From Balanoglossus misakiensis (taxonomy: Eukaryota > Animalia > Hemichordata), in NCBI GenBank assembly GCA_040954595.2, contig CM082579.2, positions 10,467,625 through 10,531,624 of the forward strand: DNA of 64,000 nucleotides, read 5' to 3'. Made by a program: the position numbers and the translations under genes. Below, in pieces: positions 4,490-55,910 of the stretch (its first letter is position 1; the number at the start of each line of letters is the position of its first letter). A model generated the notes under the pieces. It made no database searches. It saw only the letters and a program-made list of their open reading frames with translations, and had not been told where the DNA came from.

Positions 4490-7400
4490 TCACTCTGGCT
4501 CAAAGAATCCATGTGCACTCCAGTGAACACGTACAGGGACCTCAGCTCGACCAATCTCTTCAAAGGACTGGCCATCAAGGACCAGCAGAAATGATGGTTT
4601 GTCCCCAACATTCATCACAGCAGACAACACCACTCCTGTTTTAGAAAGCAAAATATCCATGCAGTCATCTCTAGGGAAAATACAACAAATAAATTTGTGG
4701 ACAATTTTGACATCTCTGCATATTGACCTTGTTTTTTTTTTGTAAAATGTAATCTATTGAATACTGGAATGTCTTTGTTTGTAAATATTGAAGTTCCACC
4801 ACAATCATACTTTGATGTTGCCTAGAAAACTGCTCTGTAAAGGGAATTGTGGGAAAAGGGATGATTCGCCCAAAATACATGTCATTATTTGCAATAAGAA
4901 TTCTTGGTGTGGTCGTGGTAATATTATATGAATACATGTATATATCATATATGAACATTGGTATTATATGAATACATGTATATATCATATATGAACATTG
5001 ATATGAGATATTTCTCTGAAATTTTGGTCACTTAACCGTTGTAGCCAATAGTTGAATTAGCATAGACAGTAGAAGAGTGTCTATGGTTGAATACAGTCTG
5101 TACAAAATAGTTCTCATAACAACAGTATCTTTTGTGACCATGAAATACGTGCTTGTCACTTGTGATAATTAATATTCCCACCTTCATCCTCAGTCTTTGC
5201 ATTTGGTGCCGGCACAAAGATTGGTTCAGCCGGAAAGCAGTCTTCTTCTTCCCAGTCCTTGTAGCTTTTATCTTTTAAGTCTCCCTTCACGAGCTTCAAT
5301 GAAACATATATGCATGTATAACCTGTCTAAACCGAATACCAAAGGGACTGGGGATATTGTTCAGTTTGCAGAGGTGTCTGGTTTGTAGAGGTTATTTTAA
5401 CATGTCAAACGGACGGGAAAATATGTTTGGTATGTACAGGTTCCAGTATAGACCCGGTTTGGTTTGGACAGGTTTATATACATGTGATTGTGATTACATG
5501 TATTGTTGTGAACTTCACTGATCATACATTGTTAAAATCAAAGTGTGCACAGCCAGTTACTGTACTGGAGTTAGTACATCTGGAACTGATATATGAACAT
5601 TAAATAGATATATTTCAGTTACCTTCTTAAACTCATCTCCAAAACAATACAGATATCTGTATTCTTTCCCATTATATTTTCTGTAGTTTATTGTTGGAAA
5701 TTCTAATGCTGGAAGAAGAAGAAAATGAGAGAATGTCCAGTCAAACATCAAAGGAAAGACAATTCAAAGTCAGGTTTGAGTGCCAGAAAGGATTTTTCAA
5801 ATTTCAAAGTATATTTAGAGAATAATGTATGCCTTGAAGAAATGGAAGAAAGCACACATTGTGTGTCATAATGTACGAGGCAAATGCTGAGTACATTATG
5901 GAGTACACAAGTAACCACGAGTTCAGGCAATAATATGTAAAACTGTGTACTCTATACTACTTTATACAATACAATTGATCTATTTGCACTCACTGTATCC
6001 AACATCAAAGATGCTTTCGTACGTACAGTAGATGGAGCCATCACTCTCTCTGACAGCAGATGCTGTTATGTTCTCCAAAGTTACAAGGTTTTCTCCTGAC
6101 TTAGCACTCTGAGAGAAAAAAGAAGTTAATAACAAGATAATCATTGTGATATACTTACACTGTATTATTAGCATGATTTTGTCAGCTTGGAAGAATAATC
6201 AGTAATGAATGATGAAATGTATGAGGACTGTATTCTAATGGGATAGGAGTAATATGTTGATGAACACTGTTTGAAATTATCAAACTGCATGCACTCTGAA
6301 AATAAAGAAGAAGAGAAGGTGTTGCTATATTTATCCAATCCTGTTTAGCCATCTATCCTTATGAGTGTAATGAGTTTGAAAAAAAACAACAACGGTGGAC
6401 TACTATAAATCAAATAAAACATTTGCTGTAACAGTGGTTTCACAAATTGCTGACTTCCCCAATTCCTCTATTTCCAACCTCATAGACTGGTAATTTTACC
6501 CAGAATAGATATATGCGTACCACAGCTATATGGTGACATACTAAAATGCAATTTAGTGATAACCTTACCTCTCCAACGTCTAATGGTAGAACAAATCTCC
6601 AGGGCTCGCCTAAGGGTGCTGGATTGCCTTCCTGGGCCGATTTCATAAACAACTGATCTATTAAATCAGCATTATGGAAACCAAACAAATCCACAACCAA
6701 ATGGCCCTCTTTCTCGTACGCATTGGCATGATGGAAGAGAAATATGGCGTCAGTGGTGTACTTGGTCTCCAGTTCCTCTCCAGTGTCCCGGCGTACCACA
6801 TGGAAATGAGTTCTCCATTCCGGATGCCACTCCAGACAGTCGCGGACCGGTCGTTGAAGTGGTTTGTACAAGAGAGCTTTCCATATGTTGACAATCAGTG
6901 GTTGTTCGATGTAGACATAATAATTGTCTGAGATTCCAAAACTGTGATAATATGCCGGATGCTTGTAACTCATTGGCACTGTGCAAGCAATGGTGGCTTT
7001 CTGTAGTGGATTTTGCACTCCTGAAAGAGGACAATTGGTTTATGATCAAATTATTTCAACACCAGATTCCACTTCACAAAGGGCAAACTATTAAAGGGAC
7101 AAAGTCTCTCTCTCCCTGCCATTTTTCCCTTAATTATGTTTGATACAAGACGCCATTTATGTTAATGTACATGTGATATGTAGTGATTCATACCAATTTT
7201 CAAATCAATCTGACCAGTGGTTGTCGAGGTTGTGAGTTTTGACAAATTTCATATTTTCCCAGCAAATTTGCATATTTTTGGCAATGACCACTTCATTTGA
7301 ACAAACTCCCATCTGCAGTCCCGCCTGCATATACACACCAAATATTGATGTGATACGCACAGCAGTTTTCAAGTTTTTGAGTTGACGGACATGCAGATAT

Positions 7401-10400
7401 ATACATACATCCATGCATACACCAAATAGTGCAGGAGCTAAACCCCAAATTTGTGTATAATTGTGCACTTACAAGTTTCACGCTTTTAACCCAACGTGCA
7501 CTATTTCAAAGTATGAATGTCTGTTTCTGGCCACTAGAGGGCGCTGTCATTTTAGCTCCACATTGGAAAATGTCCCCCGTGGGGCAAAGCATGACTGTAC
7601 CAAGTTTCATGCTTTTGACCTGAAGTGCACGATTTTTTGGTTAACTGGTAACTGCCCCACTAAAATGTGACCTAAAAATGTTATTATTTGGTAGACCAAA
7701 GAAATCCTGTCTTATACATTGCCGATTTTGAGCAAACAAACTGAATACAATGAAATTGGCCTGATTCGTTATCTTCACTCTGTCTAGACAGACGCCAGAC
7801 ACAATAGTAATTTATTGTTTGTACATGTACAAAGTTTAGATCACCTTTATCTGCAGGTGGTATTTTCACAATGTGATAGGTGGTGTAGAGGCCATACTTC
7901 ACCGCAATGTTGTACACAGTGCCATCATTGTCTACATGTGGATGGGCTGATGCTCCGTGGACTGACACAACTGAAGAGTAATCCACCTGAAGATTGTGGG
8001 AAAAAAACAATTTGGAAAATAAAGACAAGTACTAATAAATGTTCCTACATATCAATTTTCATGCTTGTATCCCAATTTGATACATTTTGCAAAAATATCA
8101 CTCTAATCTGCCCCACTAGTATGATCGGCAAGAAATTGTTTAATATTTTGTTTTTGTTTTCCGGTGACAATGCAGAATGGAAATGCTGTGCTATACCTAT
8201 AAAGATTCACATAAAGTTATCACAATGGACTACCTTTTCTCCCATTGTTTCCAATGTCTTCGGATCGACTTTTCGAATATAATGGGTTTCTGATATTCCA
8301 CAGAAATCTTCTCCCATCTTCACGATGTTAACAGCTCCATTGTCAGTGACTTCTCCGATTTTGAAGTAAGAGAAAAACCTCTGGAAAATGTTCTTGCATG
8401 GGTCTGGATAGGCAAACGTCCCAAATGCAGAACGGACAACACGATTAGCACCTGTAGCTTCTTTGAAATCGTCACTTCTTAAAAATCTGCTTTGGTAAGT
8501 AACCACGCCCTTTTGGATATTGAACCGGTGGATGTTAGAAAGCCCATCGAAGAAATGGTTGTAGTTGTCTTGACCAACTTGATAGACACTTGGGCCATTC
8601 CTAAGTAAGCTTCCTGATATCCATGGTGGTATGGTTCCTTTTGAAGAAGAAAAAATATATATAAACCGTAATTAAAACGGCAAGCAGCGTTATAGCAAAG
8701 CAGGGCCCATGGTGATGTGCAAAGGTAAAATACACAGAAGAGACCTCTATCGACATAGACGAACGGTAATTAAAAACCAACAAGCAGGAGGTAGTGGTTT
8801 TGTGAATAGCATTACAACATATTGACGATCATTGTTGCAGAGCGGAACAACATAATGCACTGCAATCACGGGCATCCTGGGACAATTAGGCTAAAGCTGA
8901 TCGACTGTTTCGCGTCATACGAGCACTCACGCACATCACTCGTCGCTCATGTCCTACCGCCTGAGGCGCACTTTTCACTGGCGATGTGACGAGCCCAGTA
9001 AGCCAACTTTTGGACGAACATTATCAACTTTCGGACCGACATTTTAAACTCTATCGAGCCAACATTTCAACTTTTGAACATGAAAACAGTACTCTAACGG
9101 TCATAGTAATTTTTGCAGTCCGTTCCCATAGAAACAAAATTTTATGTACGTCACTATAGCAATTATATCCTAGGGGAGGGGAACTAGCTCGAGCTTGTTC
9201 ATAAGAATATATGCTGACACCGGCATGCGTGAATTCATCCAATGTTGCAAATAGGTGATGAGAGAGCTAGCTGAAATGTTGGCCCGGACTTGAAGCTCAA
9301 ATGCGAGTCTGAATGCGCTGGCCTCGATTATGCGCCGTGCATGTCACGGTGGCAACTTGGTCGCGTCTCGTCCCGGGTGACACGATGACCGTGACTATTT
9401 TCTTGTTAAATTAGGTGAATTCTGACATAATTTTGACCAGAACGGGCCCCCATATTCTTCCGTCGACCGTAATCTGTGACGTAGGGCTACGTAATGGAGA
9501 GTAACACCTGATTTGACAAGACGACCGTGGCTATATGTAAGTCATAAAATTGTATTCAGAAAAAGGAGAAGGACGGCGAAAGACGGTGAAGGACAGCATC
9601 ATATCCATGAAATATAGAAAACGACTCTCACTGATAAATCTACAAAATAAAGCCGGCTACACTGATCACTCCAGATGGTATACAAGGCAATAGACACCAA
9701 TAACACCACAAATTATTAAAACTTGTAAAGGGCATTACCATTTCCCGACAAAAATCAACCGAAGGACACCAAAATCGCCACAAAATCAACCGCGAAGGAC
9801 AATGAAGTCTCCACACAATCAACCTAAATCCAATTGAAGGACACCAATGAGAAAATTGCCCGTTTTATATGTTACCTGCATGGCCCTCGCCATCGGCATC
9901 TATTATATTTTAAGATATCTATATAATTTGTTTTGTTTTGTGGAAATTTGAGCAGAATTCAACATCAACTACATTCTAGTCGTTTTTATTCACAAGCGGA
10001 GAGCTAGTGTACATCAGGTAGAAAGAGGTCTTTTCGTTCTTCTGTTTTCCCCGTGATTAGCCTAATGTATACATTAATTCACCTATGCAAACTTAGTCTT
10101 CGTTACCATGGTCGCGATTTAGCCAGTCACATTGGTCATGCGAGAAAAAAAGAACAGCGTCGCCACGTGTTCTCAACAAGAATACTTTTAACTATTTATG
10201 TGTATGTGTAATTACGGGCGAGTGAATTCCGCTGCGAAACAAATGTCAACGAACTTTTCTGTAGCCTTCGCGATCGCATCGCGTAACAACGTCATGTAGT
10301 TGCGTAACAATATGTTGGTTGGCATGTACAGTTTGTCAGGTATGTGGTTCTACACGATCGCAGAAAGTCCTTGCGGCCAATGTCTTTTGTCCGATCCGTA

Positions 10401-17873: not shown

Positions 17874-20800
17874 TTATTCTTTTTCAAAAATTCCATGCAG
17901 TCCATATGTAATATGGACTGGAACTTCAGCTCTGGCTATTTCTGTGAAAGACTCTGCATCCAGGATCAGTAGGAATGATGGATTGTTTTCTCCAACTGTC
18001 ATCACTGATGACAACACTATACCTGAAAGAAATCAAATACCATAATATTTATAGTCAATCACACTGTAGCTTCAACAGTATATTTAGGATTCAGTTGGCC
18101 CAGTTGCAGGCACTAGAGTTGTGTACATTGTGGGACTGAAAGTGTATGGTTGGGTGGTAGTATATATTTCCAATAGTAGGGTAGGTCAAATTACCGAACC
18201 ACACAATATTTTTGCATTGGCCTTATCTGAATGCTTTAAAATGATAAATATCTCAAATTGCAGTAATTTTTTCCAAGGTGACAAAATACACATCATGATC
18301 ATAAAGATTACCATCACATGATTAACAATAATTATCATGTAAATTGTCATATTATTAAATTACCACTACTTATGTGGGGAAAAAACACAGAAAGTACCTT
18401 CATCTTCTTTAGTGGCACCTGGTTTGGGCACAAAGACAGGTTCTGAAGGAAAGGCATCATTTCCGGCACTCCATTCTTTGTAGGATTTCTCCAAAACATC
18501 CCACTTCATCAACTAGAATATATAATGCAAACGATACATTGAATTACACAGGAAAATGCATTTGACTAAACGATTTAGTCTTATATTTATCACCCACTAT
18601 TGACATTGCTGAGAAATTTACACATTACCACATCACGTTCCTCCATCTGGTCCAGGAGCCCTCAGTAGACCGTAGCATAAAACACAAAATAAACCCAGAC
18701 CGAATAAGCTGCCCAATGAAGAAGACCCATTTACAGTAATAACATCAATGAAAAATAGCATCAAGGACACTGTGGTCCCATTTAGGGATTACACAAAAAA
18801 GTATACACTGGAGTACATATACAGACAGAGAGAGAGAGAGAGAGATCAATAGGCAAACATCACTGATCTGACTGACCCATAAGCTGCCAATGACATGTGT
18901 ACTGTACAAACACCAAATAGAACAGCTGGTTTAACAGTTAGCGAGTTATGTAAACATGTGCTTATACATACTTTTGCAAATACTCCACCCATACTGTATG
19001 CATATCTGTATTCTTTGCCATTCATGGAGTAGTTGATTCTTGGCAGTTCAACACCTGCAAATGAACATACTCGTTTAGTTTCAAGTTCAAGGGAACAAAG
19101 TCCAATTAAAGCTGCAAGCAGCATTGGCGGGACCCCAAGCGGACCTCACCAAATGCCAAGTAGGTGTGAACATTGGTTTAGGATCCCTGTAAGTTCATCA
19201 AATACTCGTCCATGTCCAAGAAAAATCAGAATTCCAGCCCTCAGGATGGAACATATTTGAATATACACATATACTTACTCTCATCATCACCAACATCAAT
19301 GATCTTTTCGTAAGTGCAGTGGATAGAGCCATCATCCAATTTCATTGCGGTAGCCGTGCTTTTCTCCAACGTCACTAAATTTTCACCAACAGGAGCTGTC
19401 TGCAACAGTTTCAAATTAAGAAAATTACATGTCAAGATTGATAAATCACCTCATACTGACCACAACCTGAACAACAATGGGCAGTCACCTTGGTGACATG
19501 CCTATGCACGGACCACTATTTGTTATATACACAAATGGCAAATACATATAATGTATAGTAGTGCAGATTAGAGTGATTGTTCGGCCAAATGTTTCAAATT
19601 GTGATACAAGCATGAAAATTGGTGCATAGGTATATAAAAGGCCACTTTTTAAAGAAAATAACACACATACAAATGATTTGTCATCCTACCTACCTCTTCA
19701 ATGTTCAATGGCAGGACAAAACGCCAAGGATGAACCAAGGATAAATCCCCTCCAGACTGCAGATCATCCATGTACAGACGTTTCAGTACATGCACGTCGG
19801 AGTAACCACACAGATCGACAACGAGATGACCATCCTTCTCGTAGGCATTCACATGGTGAAACGTGAAGAAGGAATCTGCAATAAATCTCGTCTCCAAAGC
19901 TTGTCCGGTCTCACGATTAATAACTCGGAACCGGTTTGGCCATTCTGGGTAGAACTCAAACGTATCCACGAAAGACCAACTGAGTAGATTAGATGCAAGA
20001 AGTTTCCAGACGTTGATGATGACCGGTTGTTCGACGAAGATGATGTACTTTTCACTCATGCCGAAACTGTGGAAGTACGACGGGTGCCCACCATGCGAAG
20101 GGACAGAGCAGATAATGGACGCTTTCTGATATGGATCCTCAACACCTGAACCATTAGTTTGAAAGAGTTAATTATATGTCATTTATGCTGACCAGCTGTA
20201 ACTGTGAGTTCATCTTAAGAAACCAACCAATCAGTAGCAACCTCTCAAGACAGTTACATGCGATGCTGTATTACAATGGCCTTGGTTTTCAAGTAATCTT
20301 TTCATTATTTCATATTGTAGAAAAGGATGCTGTCTTGCTTATCAACAATCACAAATGATATAATTTTACAGATTTGGAGAACTAATATCCAATCTCAACA
20401 GGATGGTTTGATCACACCCCTTGTGATCACATTATCCTACACCAGTATTAGCTGTATTAGAGAGCTATATTCATAGACTACATGTTGCATCAACAGTGAA
20501 GTACATGTACCTTTATCGGGTGGTGGAATTTTAATGATGTTGTAACTGCTATATTTTCCATATTTGATACCCATGTTATAGACAGTGCCATCAGGATCTG
20601 TGTGACAGTGAGCTGATGCACCATTGACGGCCAAAACTTTGCTGATATCGATCTAGAAAGAAGCATAGGGAGAGAAGTTATATACCAGTTGTATGTCACT
20701 TTCAAAGACATACATGTACACATGTAGTATATGTACCCCTTTGCCAGAATTTCTGTTCGAACCAGTGTTCTGTTGGTGTTAGTGTTTCCATGAAAATGTA

Positions 20801-22195
20801 TGGTATGATTAGCCTCAAATTAGCAGTTTTGTATACAAAAAGAATAGTGGCTAGACACATGTATGACAGACATGTTCCAAAATTAGTTGAAATCACATCA
20901 GAATAATACTGTAAAACGGGTTATTTTCGTGACAGGAAATTTTCGCAATATTAAAAGAGGCAACTGTTACGCGAGGATTTATTTTCACGTTCTCGTATTT
21001 CATTGCATCTTTATCTCCGAAAAACATTTACGCAACTTTTTATTTTCACGTTTTGTTGGCTCTCGCGTATTTCGCGAAAATTTATTGCTCGCGAAAATAA
21101 CCTGTTTTACAGTATACATGTACACCCGTATGGGATTTACTTACTTTGTCGCCAAGAGCGTCTAATGTTTTCGGATCAATCTTTCGAATATATGGCGTCT
21201 CCGTCATGGCATAGAAATCTTCCCCAATCTTAACCAAAGCAACACTGTCATTATCCGTCATTGGTCTAGACTTGAAGTGTGAAAATAATCGATGGAAGAT
21301 ACTCTTGCACGGGTCTGGGTAGGCATATGTACCAAAACTTGTCATCGCTATTCGATTGGCTCCAATCGCTTCCTTGTAGTCATCGCTCCGGAGAAATTTG
21401 TTCTGGTACGTGACCTTCCCATTGCTGATGTTAAACCTATGCAGCAATGCAAGTCCATCGAAATAATGCTTGTACTGCTGCTCCCCAACTTTATACAGTC
21501 CTTGGCCATTTCTTAAAAGATTTCCAGTCAACCATTCGGGAATTGTCCCTGGAATTAAAGAGGAATATGCTAGAATGTGATCAATAACTTTCTGATATAT
21601 AAACATATACATTTATTCAAAAAATAGCGTCAAGGACACGGTGGTCCGATTTAGGGATTACACAGAAAAAGTCTTCACCGGAGTAATTATACAAACAGAC
21701 AGACACAGAGAGATAGAGATCAACAGGCAAACACTGACTGACCCATAAGCAGCCAATGACATGTGTACTAGTACACCAAATAGAACAGCTGGTCTCTTTA
21801 AAGGGACAAAAGTCTCTCTCTCGCTGCCCTTGTTCCATTAATTATGTTTATTACGTATGACACAGTTTATATTATTCTACATGTGGATATATAGTGAATC
21901 AACGTTCAGCCACACACAACTTCCATCACGGCGTTACACAGGAACACACAGACCTGTACGTAGAGGTATACCCTCAACATGTAGCAGCACCCGCTACAAT
22001 CATTGCAGCTAGACTAGCTCAGCTGCGTGCAGGTCTGTACGCAGAGCTACATACAGACCTACCTTTGACTTTGGTTTCCATCGGTTCAGCATGATCCTCT
22101 TCAACTGGTAGGGATAAGAAGAATTTAGAAACTTGCTTGTTGAATTTCACATCTCCCTTTTCCGGCTGTTTGTCTGCTACTTCAAATGTCGCCAT
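17874..22195 (-). CDS. Carotenoid cleavage oxygenase (BCO1/BCO2/RPE65 family), paralog B, 8 exons, about 532 aa
   Basis: Exons (minus): 22063-22195, 21145-21548, 20511-20652, 19694-20145, 19279-19399, 18972-19054, 18398-18512, 17874-18022. Same intron positions as paralog A (exons 2-4 are 404/142/452 nt in both). Motifs [65 protein letters not shown]. Confidence 0.94.
18765..18930. repeat. Dispersed repeat of about 170 bp, present in introns 6 and 1 of oxygenase B (second copy about 21625-21793)
   Basis: tcaaggacac.gtggtcc.atttagggattacaca ... gactgacccataagc.gccaatgacatgtgtact ... caccaaatagaacagctggt in both places, same orientation. Confidence 0.75.
20907..21114. mobile_element. TA-flanked MITE (tactgtaaaac TIR); related copies at about 26600-26806 and 43954-44164
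   Basis: tactgtaaaac ... gttttacagta termini and a shared internal tctcgcgtatttcgcgaaaatttattgctc motif. Confidence 0.7.
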
Positions 22196-37375: not shown

Positions 37376-37573
37376 CCTTTGTCATTCTTATGAATATTAA
37401 TGAGATAACACCTGGCGGAATATTATCGCTACGTGATTAGGTTTTGAATATGAATGCCAATGTAAGTGCCGCCTGAGCGCGTCTGACCATGGTCTGACCT
37501 TCTCTTTGTCTGTGGCTAGCTACATCACAACTCCCAGCAAGGGGTATCAGGTTTTCTTGGGCCTCTACTGTCT

Positions 37574-40106
37574 ATGGTGGAAGCAAAGCGGGCAAAATAC
37601 GGCTGGATACTAGACTCAATAATGACCCGGATTCTAGGCATCGACTTCGCCCCGTTGGTGGTGCCTTGGCACCGGCGGCTGGAGACGCTGGCGGCCGCCC
37701 ACTATGTCTTCAGCCGCGTCGTCCTGTGCACGCTCCCCAGTGTGCTGGTGCTGTACCTCCTGTTCGCCACCTCCTACTACTGGCTGGCCCTTCTCTACCT
37801 CACCTGGCTGGCCGTGGACTGGCGCACACCCAGACGGGGAGGCCGGCGGGCCTCCTGGTTCCGCCACTGGTGGTTGTGGAGGTACCTCGCCAGATATTTC
37901 CCGGTGAAGCTGGTCAAGACGTGTGAGCTGGACGCCAAGAACAACTACATATTCGGGTACCACCCGCACGGGATCCTGGCCGTAGGCGGATTCACCCATT
38001 TTGGGACAGAAGCCACGGATTTTAGTCAACTGTTCCCAGGAATCAAGCCCTACCTCTTGGTTTTGAAGATCATGTTAGCTTTACCATTTGCTCACGATTA
38101 TTACATGCTAGCGGGTAAGTAAGCACGTATGTTATCAGTAAACGAAATATTACAGAGGCCAGGTTTACAATCAGAGTAATCCATGTTCAACCACCAGTCA
38201 CATTTTACAGTGTTTACCAAAAATTACATTTTATTTTTCTGAAATTGGCATCGTAGGGTGCTGCGATGTGAGCAAAGACAGTATTCGCCACATCCTTGAA
38301 GAGGAAGGCACGGGCAATGCAGCCATCATTTTGGTCGGTGGTGCCAAAGAATCGCTGGAGTCGACACCCGGCCAATGCAAAGTGCTTCTGAAGAACAGGA
38401 AAGGTTTTTGCAAGATGGCACTCAAGCATGGGTAAGGTTTGTTTTTCAGTTTGTGTAGTTTTCTGTACAGGCACTGAATGACAGTTCACGCATTGTACGT
38501 AATCACATTATAAGAATTGCATTTTGGGTAAAAGGTCGACACCTCTCTGTAGTAGGACCTTGAAGAAATGATATGTTAACTATATTTCAACACTTTCTTT
38601 GATCAAACATTTCTGTCTTTGTAGTTATATTAAAATCACTCTACTTTTTTTTCACATTTTGTTATTTTTTCAAAGTTTCAGAATGACCCATTGTCACTTT
38701 AGCGGCTTATGAAATTCCATTTCTTAAACATGGCAAAATTCGGCCATCTTGAAATTGTGTCGACCACATGAGATTTTCATCACTCACCTATAAGGTAGCA
38801 AAAACCTATTTGAGGTAGCTCGAGAGTTACATATTATCGTAAAATGTATAGCCGCCAGTTTAGTCCTAAAATTTTAGCTCTCGTAGTAACATACGTGAAC
38901 AACCGTTGTGCCGTTTCTGTCTGTTTGTCCGTCCCACTTCCAGCCTGTCTGTCAGTTGACATGATACGATCATTCAGAAATTATCATTTTCTGTCAATAA
39001 TCGAAGTCATGACCCAAAAATTAACAACAATCTGACAAAAGCTGTCGACCATTTACATGTATGTAAATTTACCAGACTCACAGCCCTTTGTACTGAGGAC
39101 CCTATGTTTTCTAATTACCGGTTCTCTTCACCAACACAACGTTATCAACTCACTGTCTGGACGTACAACATATGTATACCCATTTCTCTGCAGTGCCCAT
39201 CTGGTGCCCGTGTACTCCTTTGGCGAGGAGGAACTCTACACAAAAGTGGACAATCCCACGGTCAGGAAAATACAGAACACGCTTAAGAGCTTGGTGGGCT
39301 TGACCATTCCTGTCTTCCACGGGCGTGGATTTTTCAACTACAATTTCGGACTTCTGCCTTACAGGCGAGCCATCAACACTTTTGGTAAGTTTCCAGTAGA
39401 CTGCGCCTATCTGCTTCAGGACGAGACATTTAAGAGTGAAGACTGTGAAGTCCAGAAAAGTGAAGCAGAAACGGTTGTCTGCTATAATTGTTAGATGACC
39501 TGAATGAATTCTGGCTACCATACATTGTACTAGGTTTTTACTTCGCGCTGAATTGAACTCTATAGGTAAAGGGTCGACAACTCACTGTAGTATAAAGAGA
39601 GAGAATAAGTGATGTGTTGATTGTATTTCATGACTGCCTTTTTAGTTACATTCAACTTTTTTTTCAAATTTTTATTATTTTTTCTGTTTCAAAGTATCAG
39701 TTTAGCTTATGACCTTCCATTTCTTAAACATGGCAACAATCGGCCATCTTGAAATTGTGTCGACCATATGAGATTTTCATCACTCACCTATAGGTAGCAA
39801 AACCCTATTTAAGTTATGGAAAATTATATTGCCCCCTTTTATTGCCCGTATCACTTCAGATAAGTGAGTGTTTCGATGGACCGTACTTTCCTTTTATTGT
39901 GTTCAGTAAGATGGAAGTGTATATCACTCTTGTTTGATCTTTGCTTTGCAGTGGGTTCTCCGATTCCAGTAGAGAAGGTACCGGAACCGACCAACGAAGA
40001 GTTGGACTCGCTGCATCGCCTTTACATTGAGAGACTCAAGGCTCTCTTCGACGAGCACAAAGTCAAGTTCCCAGAATATGCTAGCAAAGAGATCATCTTC
40101 ATATAA
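37574..40106 (+). CDS. DGAT2/MOGAT family acyltransferase (2-acylglycerol O-acyltransferase-like), 4 exons, about 353 aa
   Basis: Exons 37574-38114, 38257-38431, 39194-39384, 39952-40106, all GT-AG. Motifs FAPL...RRLET, TPRRGGR, YFPVKL, NYIFGYHPHG, VGGAKESL, RKGFCKMALKHGAHLVPVYSFGE, GLLPYRR, VGSPI, LFDEHK. The start could instead be the ATG at 37622. Confidence 0.93.
38520..38830. repeat. Dispersed repeat family (also about 39560-39815 and 52640-52925)
   Basis: Shared gtcgaca..c.ctgtagta ... ccatttcttaaacatggcaa..atcggccatcttgaaattgtgt ... gagattttcatcactcac. Confidence 0.8.
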
Positions 40107-45140: not shown

Positions 45141-47689
45141 ACGAAGAATGTGCTGTATCTCAACGGCTGATTTTAATTACAAGCGAATAGTAGTTCCCCG
45201 GGGGCAGTGCCTATTGTCCAAGAGAGGTCATTGGACCTGCGAGGTCATATTTATTCACGAGGTCATGAATGTCACCTGACAATCAGATGCATCTCACATG
45301 ACTTGACAACCCGCACACTTTTGTACACCCAACTTCAAGGATCATCGCCATAAAGACATGGAATGTTGATTACATGGACACAGTGAGTATATAGCGTGAA
45401 AGACACTGCGAACGTGTTCTGAGCAATATCTAGAATTCCAATATCCTGATACGATCACGTTCGTAATTTTAAAAACCCAACTAGTGAACTGGTTTCACTT
45501 CAGCGCTGTCCCCGGTCACGCCCCCTCCCAGCCCAACCATCTTTACTAAAAATTCACCTCTTCAGAGCAGTATCTTCTAACAGTCAGCAAAATAAGAAAA
45601 AACCGAAACACAGTTTCGCCATGGTGGTCCAAATCCATTGTCTAAACTTGAAACGGGGATGAAAGCACAGGTGCAGGAATCACACTGACTGTAGCCCGAT
45701 TCAACATTTCTTATTTACATTACACGGTCTCCACCACAGCCCTGCAAGGCTCCATAGACAAAACTGGTGAGTCTGTGGTCCATATCCGAACCGCAGCTTT
45801 TGGCCAAAATTCGATACCTATCGGGGGGGGGGGGGAATCCTTTCCCTGTCTACTTCTAGTTCTACTCACCAGTTTTTAAGGTCAATATTTATTCACAATA
45901 TCCTCAGTGTGTCGTGTTTGTTGCTGTTTGCATTAATTGAAGCATTGTTGGTTTTTCAAAAATGAGTTATTATACAAAAGCCATCTGCTTGCCACCTGTG
46001 TTGTTTTGCAAATAAATCTGATGAAAATCATTATTTTCTTTGTCCTTCTGGCCTCAAGGATGCAATTAAGAATTAGTATTCGTGAAAGACATAAAACCAC
46101 AGAGCGCTGCATGAATACAAAATTTTACAGGTATCATATCAATTCTCAAATATGTGCAACATGTATATGCAATCCAGAAGACCTGAAAAGGGATTAACTA
46201 AGGTTAAATCATATTTGCAATGGGAGAGGTATACCAGGTTCACACACGAAAAAATTTGAGACACTATTTGCCTATGGTAAACACAGAGCATTAATCCTTT
46301 GAGTCGCTTGTGGGGACAAACAAAGTTTGTGTATAGGCGCTGAGGCTTCGCCCCATAGACAATGGGTTGCTGAGACCGGCTCAGGTCCGGCCAGCAAAGC
46401 CGTCTCAAATCAGAACCTCTATACACCGCCCACACATGTTCAAAAGACAGTATCTGATCTGAGACGCTTCAGAAGTGTGTGTGACCCCCATAGTATTGAG
46501 AAAGTATATGTCGAACTGCTGTTGATGTCAATAAACGTACAGGATTTCTTAACTAGCAAAAATTACCATTCTCTATTCATCTGATTAAGTGTATTAGAAA
46601 CAGTTTGCCTGGAATTGCTTAAAAGTTGGACTGTAAGGTGCAGTCATATGAGGGCATAGGTTGGAAGTATGGAGCGCCCTCGTGCGACTGTATCTTACAG
46701 TCTTCTTAAACGTGATCAAGGACTAAAGCTGAATGTAACTTTTCAGACGTAATCAAAGTTCTGAATAGAATGACAAATGAGAAAACTTTGAGATCACCCA
46801 CAGTTTGACAATCGTATTGTGTGGCAAGTAAAGTATGCCTGAATATGAGAAAAATGTTGGTAGAGGCATGTTCACTAATTTCATGGTCACACTCATCAGT
46901 ATCGTTCATCATATGCACAATATGACAATCAGTTCAATTATTGTCATTGTTCAATTTTATGGAAAGATCTCATTGCAGGTACCCTGGTTTATCAAAGTGT
47001 GACACTGTGATTACTTCTACTGACTGGTAGAAATTTTTGTGAATTACATCCATGTACAAAATCATGAACCATGTTTCTAGACTATGCAGGTATACATCTA
47101 GATGTAAAGTTCCACATGAGGACAACTGCCAGAGTATCCCAAATTGACATTGTCTGTCTCTATGATCTCAGTTTTGCACGTCATCACAAAGAAGAAGCTG
47201 ATAGCTGATAATTTGGGCATAAAACACTGTTCATAGCAGTGTCCATCCATAAATTGGCCATGAACAATTTTTATGCGGATTTAGCCTAATGGTTTTCTAT
47301 GCATCTCAATTAAATTGTTGTTGAAGGTCTGAGTCAAAACTTAAATACAAAAAAATACAAGTTGATTTCCAACATTGTAATATTTTCTTTTAGCGGTTTT
47401 CATATATGTGACATCCTTTTGAATTGGATATTTTCTTTATATGCTGGATTGATAATTTTGTGTGTGATTATACATGTATTATTGTATATGAACGTGTTTG
47501 TGTTTGTGTTTGAATATCTGAGCTTTTTCAGCTATTCAGTAGAAACTTAGAAACTTGTCCATTTTGCAGCTTTCCATGTAATGGGCTGTAAAGATTGAGT
47601 TGAAATTAATTAAATTAACACATGATTGAGTATACTATCAGATTATTTTGCATTGTATATTTTCAGGTCTATACTGATCATAAGCCATC

Positions 47690-50600
47690 ATGAAGCTGCT
47701 GATGATACTACTGGTGTTGTTCTACATACAAGACAGACGTGTACTGGTAGATTGCATGAATAATGGCCAAGCCAGAACTCCACCAATGGGTTGGATGGAT
47801 TGGGAGAGGTTTCGTTGCAATGTGGACTGTGCCAATGATCCGCTCAATTGCATTGGGTAAGATTCCAATTGAAGAAAGACGCCTAATTTCCAGTAATTAT
47901 CATTCTTTGAGAAAAAATGGCCACAAAATTGAAGAAATATCAGTACAGTTGAAATTTCTGTCAACTTGTACCTATCGTTTGGGAGAAGGCATTACCTGGT
48001 ATGCATCCTTGGTCATTTTGTAAAAGTGTTGGTGACTTCTTGGTGCTTTTTTATCCATTCCAGAGAAAAACTGTTCAGAGACATGGCTGATCACATGGTC
48101 AAAGATGGTTATAAAGACGCAGGCTATGAGTATGTCTGTATTGATGATTGCTGGATGTCCATGGAAAGAGATGCCAATGGCAAACTGTATGGTAATACAA
48201 CTCGATTTCCAAGCGGTATCAAAGCACTTGCAGACTATGTAAGTTGTGAGATCAGTTCCATTCTGGTGTAGTGGCTGCTATGGTACTAGCCTTTGGGGGT
48301 TGTCTTTTAAAATGTTTAAACAGTCTCTAGTTATTGCTGGTTTACATTAGGTAATGCTAGCTTATCTCAATAATGATGATGATGCGCCCCATAATGGACT
48401 CAAGCACAAATTGTACTCCATAATGTGCTTCACACATTATTTCGTAAAGTTTTCATTTTATCAAGTATTGGTCATTTGGGTGTACAGTTTATTTGAATAT
48501 TTACATGAATTTCATCTCTGCGAAATCCTGACGCTTGGTATAGCTTGATGCAGCATACAAAAATACCCTTTCAGAGATTTTGGCTTTCTGTCAATTTTTG
48601 AAGTCCAAAACCCCAAACATATATGATAGGGATTATAATTGTGATACTGACTACACAATTGAAAAATCCAGATTGACCTCATTTTGCAAAAAAAATATCG
48701 TATGGTTTCTGGTTTAACCCTTTCACCACCATGGTTCAGTCCAAACCCATCGTTGTACTGTGATTGAATATGAGAGTAACATATGACAATCAAAACTCAA
48801 TAGACTGGATCAAAACTAATTTATGCAATGCGCATATCTCAACTAGGTTCATTCCAAGGGGCTAAAGTTAGGAATCTATGAGGATTATGGAACGCACACA
48901 TGTGGTGGCTACCCAGGCAGTCTCGATCACCTCGAAGTCGATGCACAAACCTTTGCCGCTTGGGGTGTAGACTACTTAAAATTTGACGGTTGCTATGCTT
49001 CTCCTTCACAAATGGACAAAGGCTATCCACAGATGACACAGGCTCTGAATAGCACTGGGCGTCCGATAGTGTTTTCGTGTAGTTGGCCAGATTATCAGAG
49101 GGCAAAAGGCATGAAGGTAGGCATTGACATCTTTAATACTCGTTTGTACCGTAGGTTCACTCCAAAGGCTTGATGTTAGGTATTTACGGAGACTACGGTG
49201 ACAAGACATGCATGGGTTACCCGGGCTCCGTGAATCACTTGCACGTTGACGCGCAAACTCTGTCCGATTGGGGAGTTGACTTTTTCAAAGTGGACGCATG
49301 CCACGCTGACCCCAAAGACTTGAACGAAGGTTTTCCAAAATTGAGCAAAGCACTCAACAAAACAGGATCACCCATTGTATTTGCCACCACTTGGCCTCAC
49401 CACCAAGTCAAGCATGGCATTAAGGTAAGAGTCAGATACTCCGTCTGTAGTAGTATGTGACACAACCTTATATGCCGATGAAAATTGTTACATGTACATG
49501 TATCCCAGACCCACTAGGTGAACTTGCACCATAAAAATACACTGTGAATGAAATCCCAGCATGATCCCTTACATCAATTCATTTTGTACGTTACCTTAAT
49601 ACTTATTGCTCCCTGATGGAGTGGGTTTGTGTCCGACATTTGTCACTATGAGAGCAAAAATAACTGATAATTGAATGTATCAGTTCTAATAAAATAGGAG
49701 CATTGTTCTTTGACGTTGTGTACAGGTCATGTTTGAAAGTAGTGCGATATTTACAACCCAAAATGCTTATGTAAATTGTATGTGAATACAGATGACTAAT
49801 AATTAGCTTGGTGATGTTATACAGCCAAACTACACTCTGATTGGTGAAAACTGTAATCTGTGGAGGAACTACATTGACATCCAGGATTCATGGGAGAGTG
49901 TGACCAGTATCATTGATTATTACGCGAAGGAACACGACGTCTTGGCAGCAGCGCAGGGACCTGGTCAGTGGAATGATCCTGATGAGGTAAGACACAATGC
50001 CAGATGTTCATCTGTCTGTGGAAACATGTTTTCGGCCAGACCCGTTCACACCTGGGTTTTTTTTTTGCTTGGCCAAGTACCTTGCTAGGACAAGGGCCTA
50101 GCCTTTTTGGGTAATGTGAACGGCCTAATAAGCTCATATACTCAGTACATGTACATAGAGTCACTGATAGTGGTATACAACATGTTTGATATTTAGATTA
50201 TATGTAATTGTTTGGTACGGGTCTGGGTAATTGTTTCTCTTGAACACAATTTTGAAGGTTATTTTGATCGTTTTTTTCTCAGAAATGCAAAATATTTGAT
50301 TTGAACTCTTATTTGAATTTAATCATATACACTCTGCTGCCTCTTTCCCACACTTAGGTTTTATTTCACGGTGAGTGTTTCGTAAAACGTAATGGCCAAT
50401 TGGGGTATCTCCAATTGGTTTTCTGCCTGGTTTCTTTCGTAAGGGCATGAGCAATATGACATCGGGGAGGGTACATGTCATGAATATACATGTACCAGGA
50501 TATAATTTTTGATACCAAGATGGTGCGTGTATTGTAGCTACGCATGGCTGGTGTCGCTCTTGAATGTGATAACAAGTGTGAAGTTGTTTTTGAATGGTTT

Positions 50601-52085
50601 TACCAAGACTTCATTTTTTTGTTTTTCTTCAAATCACAATTTTAAGCTCCCATTTGGGCTATGGTAGCTTCCACGCAAATGTATTTGTGTATCATATAAC
50701 ATCAATTTATAATCACTAACTGAACATGGCTATGGGTACCACAAATCATGTCTACCAATCAAGACAGTCCTTTTATAGGTCACATCTTTGGGTTTCATGC
50801 TCTTGTGGATTGTCATTTGCATGAGCCCTAGATGAGTGGAGCAATTGCAGAAAAAGAATTTACTGGTCGGATTATTGCTACAATTCTTTACCTGTATATA
50901 ATAAGTCTTGGTAATAACAAAATCTTCCCTTATATGTACCGGTATTCTGTTAGATGAGTCACCTGCCATGTCAGGATTCAGCATGAATAGCAAGTTGCTA
51001 TAATGAAATCCATATTTCCTCTATTTTCAGTTGATCATTGGTGACTTCTCTCTGAGTTACGACCAGTCGAAGGCTCATATGGCAATGTGGGCAATATTTG
51101 CAGCACCACTGATGATGTCCACTGACTTGAGATCAATTCGCCCTGATGCAAGGGAAATTCTACTCAACAAAGAGATTATAGCTGTCAACCAAGACCCACT
51201 TGGTAAAATGGGAAAACGAGTAATTCAGGTATGTATTTGTGGATAGTGTAATTAGTATGTATGTGACTATGTATCTGTGTATGCATACACACACACATAC
51301 ATACAATGTATACATGAATACATATGGTACACATGCATGCATGTATGTACTGGTACGTGTACCAGTATATATAATGTATTGGGCTTCCCAATCCATTTTA
51401 CCAGGCTTACTCTCATCAGAATGTATTTCCATTTTTCTTCAGTCTTTGATGAGATATTTGAATGTTTGATGTACATGTATCTGTATAAAATTGTAGCAAA
51501 GGTTTACTTGTGTTATCCTATCCATAGTTCTGTAGTTTCAATGGTCAATTTATGCTACATAAATATCACCTCATCCATATAATATCCTCTGTGTCTGCAT
51601 CTGACACCTTTGAGTGACTCAGAGGCCCAAGGGGGAAATGTTTGAAAATGTTCAAACAATGACACCACTACAATGAATACAGTCAGCCCACACTGCATTT
51701 TGGTCAATAACAGTGTCTTACAGTTATAATATACTTCAATGTTATAATTATGATACATGTCATTAGATGAAAATTCTTATTCAACTCAAATCTATTTTTT
51801 TTTTGTCAGAAAAATAAAATTGAAGTGTGGACTAAAGAACTCGACAACAAAAACTATGCAACGGTGTTTCTAAACAGAAGAACAGACGGAATGCCACGGA
51901 GTTTTGGTCTGACTTTAGCAGCGATGGGATATGATACAGCGTTTCAAAACTATGCTCTCAGAGATGTCTTCTACCATAAACCTCTTGGATCCTTTGGCAT
52001 CAATGACACTTTCACGGCAACTATAAACCCATCAGGTGTTGTCATGGTAACAGCATCATCCAATCAAATTGGAGATAGCCAGTGA
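47690..52085 (+). CDS. GH27 alpha-N-acetylgalactosaminidase / alpha-galactosidase A-like enzyme, about 415 aa per isoform, with a duplicated alternative exon 3
   Basis: Exons 47690-47856 (signal peptide, [16 protein letters not shown]), 48064-48238 ([23 protein letters not shown]), 3a 48847-49116 or 3b 49155-49424, 49825-49986 ([23 protein letters not shown]), 51031-51228 ([21 protein letters not shown]), 51810-52085. All GT-AG. Confidence 0.94.
48847..49116 (+). CDS. GH27 alternative exon 3a (canonical active-site version)
   Basis: ag|[25 protein letters not shown]...[19 protein letters not shown]...[25 protein letters not shown]|gtag; 270 nt, phase 0-0; missed by the ORF track. Confidence 0.92.
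49155..49424 (+). CDS. GH27 alternative exon 3b (divergent active-site version)
   Basis: ag|[25 protein letters not shown]...[19 protein letters not shown]...[25 protein letters not shown]|gtaag; 270 nt, phase 0-0, no stops. Confidence 0.9.
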
Positions 52086-52155
52086 AGATTGGGCAGTCGG
52101 TATGTGTCTGTGTCTCTCTATCAGGCTATGTACACAAGATCTCAATAACAATTAA

Positions 52156-52457
52156 AGCGCCTAGCTCGTCTCACACGCATGTTCCAGCTGTAGCCGCTGG
52201 TTACAGACGTTTAGTGAACAGTCAATCCCATAAGGCAGTGCTCTGTCCTATCAATAGAGAAGATGGCAGCGACCATAATCTGTGTCTGAGATCGTGAAAA
52301 GACACCAACTTGGGTGAAAAGGAGGGACAAAACCAGAATCTACTTATACGGTGCGCATGAAATATGGAAGGAAGCGAAGGCAGTCCACTATTTGAATGCA
52401 TCGAATAGAAAATTTGCTGGGAAGTTACGCGCATGCGCGTGAGACGATCTATTGCCT
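52156..52457. mobile_element. Diverged TTAA-flanked MITE downstream of the GH27 stop codon
   Basis: TTAA|agcgcctagctcgtctcac ... gtgagacgatctattgcct|TTAA imperfect TIR. Confidence 0.5.
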
Positions 52458-53705: not shown

Positions 53706-54818
53706 TCACTGTAATTCCAAGTAACCATTGGCTTCTTGCTTCTTTCTATCTTTCAAATTCTGACGCCAAGTTATAACTGCTACCAAGCCCGAACTGAAGA
53801 GCACTAAGCAAGCTCCAAGTATCTCCCACAAACTGGGTATTCTATCGACTACAATGTACTCCAAAGAATAGGCTGCTACTACCTCCACGTTAAATAATAA
53901 CGTCGACGTAGACGCTGTCTGAAGTTGTAGGCACCGATAAGACGCCCATTGCGCAAAGGCCGTCGATAAAGCGACGCCTGCAAACTGGCCCATCGTTTTC
54001 GATTCTATATCCCAATCCACTTCGCCAAACAAGTACATGGCGGGGAGTGACACCAGGGAGGCGATGATGGCGTCGTAGAATAATGATGTCAATACATGAA
54101 GACGTTCTCCTAACCCACGTGCTACGACATAGGCGGTGGCAAAACCCACAGCACTTGCCACTGCCATCACGTTGCCCAAGAGAATCCTCCGACTTTCATC
54201 CTCTTCATCGGTCTCGTCACCAACATCGCCATGTTCACCCCCACCTCCTCCTCCATCACCATCGCCAAAAATGAAGGTTGGTTGTGTAATCATCAAAACT
54301 CCACTAACATTCAATACTATGGTGATCGCATCTTGTATACGAAGCATCTCTTTCAATGCGACGCAGGCAAAAAGAGACGTGAAGACCGGTAGAAGACCGT
54401 TGGTGATTGCGGTGACGTTGCCCGTGGATATCAACGTCAAAGCCACCACGTCTCCAACCATACCAACTGTGTAGCCGATGCCTTTACCAATAACCAGCGC
54501 AAAATCTTTCACACTTTCAAGCTTCAGTTTGACACGGTGGAAAATCATAGGCGGAACCACCACCAATCCAATCGCCAGGACGCTGATGAAGTTGATTTGC
54601 AAGGCAGGTACATCGTATCCAATCAGATGAACGAATATTGAACATGTAGCGAAAGAAATGCCCGACGTAAGTCCCAGCGCTACACCATACCCTGTCGTCA
54701 AGACTCGCTTCGTACTTTCCCAACACGTGTCGTCTTCTTTGTAGCGGCCATGATCACTGCTGAGAGTGCCATTACTGACGGGAGATGTCCCGTCTAGTAG
54801 CTGATTCTTGTCAGTCAT
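53706..54818 (-). CDS. SLC35G-like EamA/DMT drug-metabolite transporter, 370 aa, single coding exon
   Basis: About 10 hydrophobic segments in two EamA-like halves (PVFTSLFACVALKE, GVLMITQPTFIFG, EVVAAY, PSLWEILGACLV). A pyrimidine-rich acceptor 7 nt upstream of the ATG suggests a 5'UTR intron. Confidence 0.88.
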   Translation of the reverse strand: MTDKNQLLDGTSPVSNGTLSSDHGRYKEDDTCWESTKRVLTTGYGVALGLTSGISFATCSIFVHLIGYDVPALQINFISVLAIGLVVVPPMIFHRVKLKLESVKDFALVIGKGIGYTVGMVGDVVALTLISTGNVTAITNGLLPVFTSLFACVALKEMLRIQDAITIVLNVSGVLMITQPTFIFGDGDGGGGGGEHGDVGDETDEEDESRRILLGNVMAVASAVGFATAYVVARGLGERLHVLTSLFYDAIIASLVSLPAMYLFGEVDWDIESKTMGQFAGVALSTAFAQWASYRCLQLQTASTSTLLFNVEVVAAYSLEYIVVDRIPSLWEILGACLVLFSSGLVAVITWRQNLKDRKKQEANGYLELQ

Positions 54819-55910
54819 CTTACAACTACGGATATAAAGGTAAACGGAAGAAAGTAAAATCGTGTGGTGTCTTCAAAAAATCTTTAAAAAACATTCTTAG
54901 ATCTATATACTATCCAACAATAACCTTCTAGCACATCGCAAACCTGGTCCCATGCATAGCATAGCTATTATACAAAAAGTCATATTGTAATCTTATACCA
55001 ACCCGAGTTTTTGTAAATGCCCGAGAAAGAAGAAGCAAGCAGTCCAATCGCTAATTCATTAACCAGGTAGTTAGACACCCGCCAGATGCTTGACACCAAA
55101 TGGTTTGTTTCTGAGGCCCAGCAGAAGTCGATCAAACAGACAACCACACATCCGAACACTCTCAATATATTTGCAACAAAAATAGATTCGCAACCCTCCT
55201 TTATATGAGTGGGTTGATGGATTAAAAAAATATGAAACATATGGCATCGACCACATTAAGTGCAATCATGTATTTAATGACCAAATTGAGTTTTCGATCC
55301 GTAATAATTTAAACAATTAATACCAAAAGTTTTACAGTGTACACGTGAAGGTTATTGCTATTACAGTTAGCGAACTTGATAAACGTTTGTGACAAAAATA
55401 TGATGAGATAAAATAACTGTAATGATGCATAGACATAATTATATAGTGTGTGACTTGAAAGTTTATAAAATATAACATAGACTGCAGTTCATTTTGTCAC
55501 CTGTTCAGAAAAGAATGCAAAATTATCATTCGTAGGACGGAGAGCGCGATGACTAGAATCATATACCGAACATGGAAAGTGAACAAACACCGTCGAAGTA
55601 TAAGGTTACCTTGGCCAATTTTTATTTTTCCGGTTGAAATTTCTGATCCTACCAGCACTAAGGTTTCTATTACTACCGGTAGATGTGATGGGTGATGGAA
55701 TACCTGAGCCATATGGAGAATTGTTTTTTTTTTAAATAATTATAAATTTATAAATACAAAAATAAACGGCAACCTTCCTTTCCGGCATAATGGCGTTCGT
55801 AAACTTTCTCCAGATAACGGGATACTTTATAACACCATAGTTCATGAATATGTAATTAAGTACAATGTACATGTTATATGTGCTTCGAGTTTCGTTGCCT
55901 AACATCGGAA

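What the first reader, a model, noticed from the sequence alone, without database searches (positions are those of the whole stretch)
48847..49424. Mutually exclusive duplicated exons that swap the active site of a GH27 glycosidase
Seen: two tandem, homologous, stop-free exons of exactly 270 nt (48847-49116 and 49155-49424), both phase 0-0 with valid AG/GT sites, separated by only 38 nt (gtaggcattgacatctttaatactcgtttgtaccgtag). Established: this segment of GH27 enzymes carries the catalytic nucleophile (KxD; D156 in human NAGA, D170 in GLA) and the loop that distinguishes GalNAc from Gal (NAGA S188/A191 in SCSWPA, GLA E203/L206 in SCEWPL); a 5' splice site too close to the next branch point is a classical steric mechanism for mutually exclusive splicing. 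Seen: both exons keep the nucleophile (KFDGC vs KVDAC) but differ at the specificity loop (FSCSWPDY vs FATTWPHH). Inference: one gene makes two enzymes with different sugar specificity by splicing, whereas vertebrates use two genes. High divergence with intact frames suggests both exons are under selection.
Basis: partly seen in the sequence, partly recalled or inferred. Interest (0 to 1): 0.9.

Follow-up and report, generated by a model that had tools for sequence, protein, structure and literature searches.

The report
Swappable sugar-pocket exons in acorn-worm glycosidase
A sugar-cleaving enzyme gene, likely from an acorn worm, carries two side-by-side copies of the exon that builds most of its active site, and a related worm's annotated proteins use either copy, so the gene likely makes two enzymes, the second predicted to have a reshaped sugar pocket seen in no other relative examined.

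Summary
There are two homologous, stop-free 270-nt exons, phase 0/0, 38 nt apart and 52/90 aa identical. Ptychodera flava RefSeq isoforms X1 and X2 differ only inside this 90-aa block, and X2 is the 3b type. Window 3b is 73/90 identical to P. flava 3b, as conserved as constitutive exon 5 (53/66), so it looks selected. No RNA run was listed, so exclusivity is inferred.

The exon carries 8 of 13 active-site residues. Both 3b copies keep the nucleophile but change the whole N-acetyl loop (S/D/Y to T/H/H) and lose a disulfide cysteine. Only these two of 338 scored homolog segments show this.

Single changes at two of these positions nearly abolish human GLA activity, so 3b may be weakly active.

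Crustacean isoforms independently swap a shorter loop exon, including a true S-versus-E pair in crabs. The scan noted that crustacean case earlier on other DNA (e1-7500518). Five literature searches showed no description of either.

The parts
47690..47856 (+). Coding exon 1 of a GH27 alpha-N-acetylgalactosaminidase-like gene (likely signal peptide; mature N-terminus with active-site W16, chicken numbering)
   Evidence: ATG and GT donor; residues 23-55 are 31/33 identical to P. flava; translation
48064..48238 (+). Exon 2 (substrate-binding D61/D62)
   Evidence: AG/GT; 53/58 aa to P. flava
48847..49116 (+). Exon 3a, conserved copy: Y103, C111, K138, nucleophile D140 (codon 48985), C142, C171, loop S/D/Y (codons 49081, 49090, 49093)
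   Evidence: 86/90 aa to P. flava X1
49117..49154 (+). 38-nt GT-AG spacer intron. Branch-point-like TTGAC (49124) and TTAAT (49133) put the branch A 11 or 20 nt into the intron, likely too close for 3a-3b joining. Retention gives a stop at 49171-49173
   Evidence: <50-bp steric criterion from PMC5740500 passages; branch points are motif guesses
49155..49424 (+). Exon 3b, derived copy: keeps Y103, C111, K138, nucleophile D140 (codon 49293), C142 and the N-glycosylation sequon; changes G141A, C171T, S172T, D175H, Y176H (codons 49296, 49386, 49389, 49398, 49401)
   Evidence: 73/90 aa to P. flava X2
49825..49986 (+). Exon 4 (C193, R197, acid/base D201)
   Evidence: 49/54 aa to P. flava
51031..51228 (+). 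Exon 5 (end of the TIM barrel)
   Evidence: 53/66 aa to P. flava
51810..52085 (+). Exon 6 (beta-sandwich domain, stop). It is the only last exon found in the window
   Evidence: 73/85 aa to P. flava; tblastn with 26 queries found no second copy

Best explanation
The gene holds two tandem copies of the exon encoding the catalytic nucleophile and sugar-specificity loop of a GH27 glycosidase; it likely splices in one copy at a time, and copy 3b is predicted to give a second, still catalytic enzyme with a narrowed pocket at the sugar's 2-position. Shown: the duplication, intact frames and splice sites, the matching isoform pair annotated in P. flava, conservation of 3b, and which residues differ. 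Inferred: exclusivity is enforced sterically by the 38-nt spacer (frame cannot enforce it, as 270 is a multiple of 3). Inferred: the duplication is old; 3b changed fast (stem 0.41 changes per site) and was then held, as expected for neofunctionalisation. Inferred: form A (S/D/Y) is the ordinary lysosomal alpha-GalNAcase. Form B (T/H/H, no C171-C193 disulfide) most likely excludes the N-acetyl group and acts on galactosides or otherwise 2-substituted sugars. It is a third pocket type beside the separate E-type alpha-galactosidase genes, not a stand-in for them.
For: P. flava XP_070552525/6.1 (X1) and XP_070552527.1 (X2) are both 405 aa and differ at 35 positions, all within residues 113-199 of the 111-200 block. 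Identities: A-A 86/90, B-B 73/90, A-B 52-56/90, with 20 fixed A/B differences. The two 3b copies group at 100/100, and joining window 3a with 3b is rejected (p-AU 3.9e-5), so the duplication predates the split of the two copies. Neutral simulation: no stop and at least 73/90 identity in 16 of 1000 runs at 0.15 changes per site and 0 of 1000 at 0.2 or more, while constitutive exons differ by 6-20% of aa. Both catalytic Asp residues and 10 of 13 listed active-site residues remain in B; the three changed ones are exactly the N-acetyl recognition loop S172/A175/Y176 (lists from PMC5445309 and PMC548690). Two of these positions switch GalNAc/Gal specificity in the human enzymes (PMC5645117 passage). 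The AF2 model of P. flava X2 has pLDDT 95.5 and TM 0.93 to chicken NAGA. Crustacean isoforms independently swap the same loop.
Against: No reads were seen: exclusivity and expression of 3b in this organism are untested. P. flava's RNA support, exon coordinates and spacer length were not visible; that RefSeq alternative isoforms usually rest on aligned transcripts is recalled. B changes positions that are nearly invariant in 112 homologs: G48 112/112, C78 112/112, Y83 110/112. In human GLA, C202Y gives 0%, Y207C 0% and Y207S 1.1% of wild-type activity (PMC3170878 table passage). B is left with an unpaired Cys. 3b evolves about 4-6 times faster than 3a on the tip branches (0.097 and 0.10 versus 0.025 and 0.017). 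The AF2 model was driven by an alignment of 112 non-B homologs and says nothing about activity. B-type was found in only two genomes; none was found for Saccoglossus or Glandiceps. The true neutral distance between the two genomes is unknown, so the simulation is indicative only.
Confidence: 0.58

Rival explanations
1. 3b is spliced in mutually exclusively and is selected, but form B is catalytically weak or dead. It would act as a sugar-binding pseudoenzyme or a damping partner for form A.
For: It loses a cysteine invariant in 112/112 homologs and a tyrosine kept in 110/112. Matching single changes nearly abolish human GLA activity. A fly MXE that removes a metal ligand is a precedent for a likely lower-activity isoform (CRMP; PMC7954323 passage).
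Against: Both 3b copies keep K138, D140, Y103 and the C111-C142 pair. The changes are clustered in one subsite and identical in both genomes. PMC5445309 reports an active starfish GalNAcase II lacking this same Cys. That support is weak, because all 5 A. amurensis RefSeq isoforms with that enzyme's N-terminus keep the Cys.
Confidence: 0.25
2. 3b is a slowly decaying or rarely used duplicate with no role of its own; the P. flava X2 model reflects low-level splicing noise.
For: Faster rate than 3a. No B-type protein in two other hemichordate genera. No reads seen here.
Against: 3a-3b synonymous sites are saturated, yet frame, length, splice sites, catalytic residues and sequon are intact in this genome, and frame, length, catalytic residues and sequon in P. 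flava X2. B-B identity (81%) equals that of constitutive exon 5 (80%). The neutral simulation rarely allows this.
Confidence: 0.08
3. One reading: form B is simply this gene's alpha-galactosidase A equivalent, so that one gene replaces the vertebrate NAGA/GLA pair.
For: A bulky residue at position 175 would fill the N-acetyl pocket as Leu does in GLA (inference). A tree with 3b joined to the hemichordate E-type genes is not rejected (p-AU 0.20).
Against: 3b has T/H, not E/L. Dedicated E-type genes exist in all three named hemichordates. The best tree does not place 3b with them.
Confidence: 0.07
4. The two exons are joined, or the spacer is retained, so the product is a 505-aa doubled protein or an NMD target.
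For: The 3a+3b join is in frame with no stop. Retention creates an early stop.
Against: The 38-nt spacer is under the 50-bp steric limit; the other five introns here are 207-1044 nt. P. flava isoforms hold one copy each. A doubled barrel segment would be hard to fold (inference).
Confidence: 0.02

Closest known systems
Ptychodera flava RefSeq alpha-N-acetylgalactosaminidase-like isoforms X1 (XP_070552525.1/XP_070552526.1) and X2 (XP_070552527.1)
   Same: Same 90-aa block swapped, same T-T-W-P-H-H loop in X2.
   Different: A different genome or copy (exons 80-96% identical; orthologue versus recent paralogue not resolved). It is an automated annotation with no functional note.
Crustacean NAGA-like RefSeq isoforms (Eriocheir XP_050734346/47/49, Scylla XP_063866965-7, Cherax, Penaeus, Panulirus, Artemia); earlier scan note e1-7500518
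   Same: Equal-length isoforms that differ only in a block carrying the same specificity loop.
   Different: A shorter block (29-31 aa) without the nucleophile, 2-3 versions, canonical C-x-W-x-x-Y kept, and crabs have a true S-versus-E pair. The different 5' border implies an independent origin.
Human NAGA / GLA gene pair (PDB 3h53, 1r46; interconverted GLA 3lx9) and C. elegans GANA-1
   Same: Same fold and catalytic residues; the same loop sets GalNAc versus Gal specificity.
   Different: Separate genes (or one dual-activity gene), not alternative exons. Neither window exon has the exact S/A or E/L pair.
Homologous mutually exclusive exons in enzymes (PKM1/2, PFKP, fly CRMP and CG42249; PMC7954323) and steric-interference MXE clusters (PMC5740500)
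   Same: Tandem duplicated exons exchanging residues near functional sites. Nine events affecting catalytic-site residues are reported; 57 (9%) of human clusters have a donor-to-branch-point distance under 50 bp.
   Different: The string 'galactos' has 0 word-start occurrences in PMC7954323's main text (supplements not seen). Here the exon holds 8 of 13 active-site residues of a glycosidase, including the nucleophile.

Membership tests
Glycoside hydrolase family 27 | Melibiase_2 profile; (beta/alpha)8 barrel plus beta-sandwich fold | tested here: met
   Pfam PF16499 above cut-off for both exons; P. flava B model TM 0.93, rmsd 1.4 to 1ktb
Glycoside hydrolase family 27 | Nucleophile Asp (D140) and acid/base Asp (D201) | tested here: met
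   D140 in both 3a and 3b; R197/D201 in exon 4
Glycoside hydrolase family 27 | Retaining hydrolysis of alpha-galactosyl-type substrates | not testable with these tools
   Needs an enzyme assay
alpha-N-acetylgalactosaminidase subtype | N-acetyl recognition loop S172/A175/Y176 in exon 3a | tested here: inconclusive
   3a has S/D/Y; D at 175 occurs in 36 of 112 homologs, A in 35
alpha-N-acetylgalactosaminidase subtype | N-acetyl recognition loop S172/A175/Y176 in exon 3b | tested here: not met
   3b has T/H/H in both genomes
alpha-galactosidase A subtype | E203/L206 loop | tested here: not met
   Neither exon has Glu; E-type loops are in separate hemichordate paralogs
Homologous mutually exclusive exon cluster | Adjacent homologous exons of equal length and phase with valid splice sites | tested here: met
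Homologous mutually exclusive exon cluster | Isoforms containing one copy or the other | tested here: met
   P. flava X1/X2, annotation level only
Homologous mutually exclusive exon cluster | Junction reads into each copy and none joining them | not testable with these tools
Homologous mutually exclusive exon cluster | Steric mechanism: donor to branch point under 50 bp | tested here: met
   The whole intron is 38 nt; the mechanism itself is not shown
Homologous mutually exclusive exon cluster | Exclusion by frameshift and NMD, or by U2/U12 incompatibility | tested here: not met
   Joint inclusion is in frame; donors are GTAAG/GTAGG/GTATG types, not the U12 consensus (recalled)

The most novel reading that the evidence does not exclude
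Invertebrates have repeatedly and independently turned one GH27 gene into an exon-cassette enzyme. Acorn worms swap the nucleophile-plus-loop exon, crustaceans the loop exon (including an S-versus-E pair in crabs), a brittle star the nucleophile exon, amphioxus the acid/base exon, and echinoderms and amphioxus the whole C-terminal domain. The acorn-worm B form is an active glycosidase with a new 2-position specificity, not yet described for animal GH27.
Probability: 0.33. Interest if true: 0.78.

Novelty: new variant of a known kind. Interest (0 to 1): 0.57.

Why it matters
Homologous mutually exclusive exons are known, but cases that exchange catalytic-site residues are few (9 events in PMC7954323). 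This one swaps the loop whose two residues interconvert the Fabry and Schindler disease enzymes. It is a natural same-scaffold experiment: two proteins about 91% identical that differ in one subsite. The T/H/H pocket is a new GH27 variant that could have a new substrate, and one expression assay would test it. The parallel crustacean arrangement suggests convergent use of splicing, rather than gene duplication, to tune glycosidase specificity.

Tried and rejected
No whole genome is held. No RNA holder was listed for 47600-52200, so no reads were laid. Searches for more B-type proteins found none beyond P. flava X2: 245 hits of 259 candidates, 120 listed; best 150 of 3619; 13 of 14. A motif scan of all 538 proteins held gave the two 3b copies plus P0328, whose match lies outside the loop. 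X2 was invisible to because it is a non-representative cluster member, so other B forms may be hidden the same way; only 28 clusters were opened. Where 3b attaches in the tree is unresolved: with E-type genes p-AU 0.20, with ptychoderid 3a 0.18, with all hemichordate orthologues 0.11. The Nematostella row was dropped because the anchor pattern failed. No strong docking/selector-type inverted repeat was found in 48239-49824; there were 10 weak pairs of 11-21 nt and no shuffle control. No extra GH27 exon or alternative last exon lies in the window. dN/dS between species could not be run because no P. flava DNA was available. The starfish GalNAcase II precedent for losing C171 was discounted. No internal block swap was found in the Amphibalanus, Tachypleus, Euwallacea, Centruroides or one Montipora isoform set, and one Montipora pair could not be anchored. 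The primary papers on NAGA/GLA interconversion and the NAGA structure were not held. The scan's sequence look-up for 3b returned nothing.

Full report
OBSERVATION. They share 162/270 nt and 52/90 aa. Third codon positions match at only 30/90, pS is 0.85 (saturated) and dN is 0.34. The other five frames of 3b hold 2-6 stops. This is far beyond chance: both match the same Pfam segment and the same stretch of chicken and human NAGA and GLA. A model with exons 47690-47856, 48064-48238, 3a or 3b, 49825-49986, 51031-51228 and 51810-52085 gives 415 aa either way. Joining both (505 aa) or skipping both (325 aa) is also in frame. Retaining the spacer gives an early stop. tblastn with 26 homologs found no other GH27 exon in the window.

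ORGANISM AND INDEPENDENT SUPPORT. The closest proteins are from hemichordates. Exons are 80-96% identical to Ptychodera flava, so the window is likely a related acorn worm (inference; orthologue versus recent paralogue not resolved). Opening the P. flava cluster revealed RefSeq isoforms X1 and X2. Both are 405 aa and differ at 35 positions, all in residues 113-199, which is the block these exons encode; X2 carries the 3b-type loop. A-A identity is 86/90, B-B 73/90 and A-B 52-56/90, with 20 fixed differences. The two 3b copies group at 100/100 on a stem of 0.41, with tips of 0.097 and 0.10; the 3a tips are 0.025 and 0.017 (29 rows, Nematostella dropped). Joining the window's 3a and 3b is rejected (p-AU 3.9e-5), but the attachment point of 3b is unresolved (p 0.11-0.20). 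B-B identity (81%) lies within the range of the constitutive exons (31/33, 53/58, 49/54, 53/66, 73/85). A neutral 3b would pass 'no stop and at least 73/90' in 219, 16 and 0 of 1000 runs at 0.1, 0.15 and 0.2 changes per site. The real neutral distance is unknown, so this is indicative. I saw no reads for either species; that RefSeq alternative isoforms normally rest on aligned transcripts is recalled, not checked.

SPLICING MECHANISM (inferred). The other five introns are 207-1044 nt. Branch-point-like motifs in the spacer put the branch A 11 or 20 nt into the intron. PMC5740500 (passages) uses under 50 bp as the steric-interference criterion, met by 57 (9%) of human clusters. Frame-based exclusion cannot apply, and no strong pairing element was found.

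ACTIVE SITE. PMC5445309 (parts 1-3 of 5 read) lists 13 active-site residues in chicken numbering. Eight lie in this exon (alignment; table). 3a keeps seven and has Asp at 175, as do 36 of 112 homologs. 3b keeps Y103, C111, K138, D140 and C142 but changes all three residues of the N-acetyl recognition loop (S172, A175, Y176; PMC548690 passages) to T/H/H, plus G141A and C171T, identically in both genomes. Among 112 aligned homologs G141 and C171 are invariant, position 172 is S (80) or E (32), H at 175 occurs 0 times and Y176 110 times. Among 338 scored segments from 409 hits of 413 proteins, only the two 3b copies have T at 171; G141A is not unique (11 segments). In the human enzymes E203S/L206A and S188E/A191L interconvert specificity (PMC5645117 passage; PMC5478728 passages). 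Against activity: human GLA C202Y has 0%, Y207C 0% and Y207S 1.1% of wild-type activity (PMC3170878 table passage). C202-C223 is a listed disulfide (PMC3873411 passages), G171V has 3.6% (PMC7037350 passage), and PMC3016270 (passages) calls disulfide loss highly destabilising. These are single changes in another background; a concerted set may behave differently. The reported active starfish enzyme II with G171 is weak support, since all 5 A. amurensis RefSeq isoforms matching its N-terminus keep Cys and Trp. AF2 folds P. flava X2 confidently (pLDDT 95.5, pTM 0.91) as a GH27 enzyme (TM 0.93 to 1ktb), but the alignment was all non-B and this does not test activity.

3b is not a GLA-type exon. 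Saccoglossus, Ptychodera and Glandiceps each have separate genes with the E-type loop, so acorn worms also 'use two genes', and 3b adds a third pocket.

RECURRENCE. Of 28 clusters opened, several held isoform sets with swapped blocks. Eriocheir and Scylla each have three versions of a 29-31-aa loop block, two S-type and one E-type. Cherax, Penaeus (two species), Panulirus and Artemia have two S-type versions. Logan-only proteins hold both shrimp versions and the crab E version (P0470, P0471, P0455). Amphiura swaps a 58/59-aa nucleophile block and shows 14 last segments among 16 isoforms seen; Antedon shows 5 of 5 and Asterias amurensis 5 of 5. Branchiostoma swaps a 40-47-aa block around the acid/base Asp. 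Amphibalanus, Tachypleus, Euwallacea, Centruroides and one Montipora set showed no such block. These are protein-level comparisons of annotated isoforms; I did not see their DNA. Different block borders imply independent duplications (inference). I found the crustacean case and then saw that the scan had noted it on other DNA (e1-7500518).

LITERATURE. Searches for this arrangement returned 0 papers, one lacewing paper, one mushroom paper and five papers whose titles are unrelated. I saw only listings for these. The library lacks most subscription papers, and supplements of the MXE catalogues (PMC7954323; PMC8373072, listing only) were not read and could list a GH27 gene. PMC7954323 (passages) reports 9 MXE events affecting catalytic-site residues.

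VERDICT. A real, conserved, very likely mutually exclusive exon pair (about 0.9). It is already implicit in an automated annotation and I found no description of it. The best reading is a second active enzyme with a remodelled 2-position pocket (0.58); a weak or dead binding form is the main rival (0.25). New variant of a known kind; interest 0.57.

Noticed in passing
Crab, shrimp, crayfish, lobster and Artemia RefSeq isoforms (P0443, P0444, P0452, P0448, P0449, P0451, P0182, P0459, P0462, P0465, P0201, P0461, P0464, P0468, P0232, P0511): Equal-length isoforms differ only in a 29-31-aa block with the specificity loop. Crabs have two S-type and one E-type version, the literal NAGA/GLA swap by splicing.
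   Followed up: partly
Amphiura, Antedon, Asterias, sea urchin and Branchiostoma RefSeq isoforms (P0130-P0136, P0139, P0144, P0145, P0150, P0242-P0263, P0414-P0434): Arrays of alternative last segments encoding the whole beta-sandwich domain (14 among 16 Amphiura isoforms seen), plus swapped nucleophile (Amphiura) and acid/base (Branchiostoma) blocks.
   Followed up: partly
P0133 (Biomphalaria pfeifferi model) and P0137 (Littorina model): The models contain tandem copies of internal blocks (two loop blocks in P0133). These may be mis-joined duplicated exons in gastropods.
   Followed up: no
P0237, P0258, P0260, P0262, P0263 (Asterias amurensis): Their N-terminus matches the published starfish GalNAcase II, but they keep Cys171/Trp173, unlike the G171/A173 reported from peptides in PMC5445309. 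This could be a peptide-reading error or an unannotated exon.
   Followed up: partly
P0124 (Glandiceps) versus window 51810-52085: The Glandiceps protein is 80/90 identical to exon 3a but only 34/85 to exon 6; by eye its last segment resembles echinoderm alternative last exons.
   Followed up: no
window 6440-8671 (-) and 19649-21612 (-): Exons of two tandem RPE65/carotenoid-oxygenase-family genes (Pfam PF03055).
   Followed up: no
window 37520-39494 (+): Exons of a diacylglycerol acyltransferase (DAGAT, PF03982) family gene.
   Followed up: no
window 53706-54872 (-): A 388-aa uninterrupted frame with two EamA transporter repeats, just downstream of the GH27 gene on the opposite strand.
   Followed up: no
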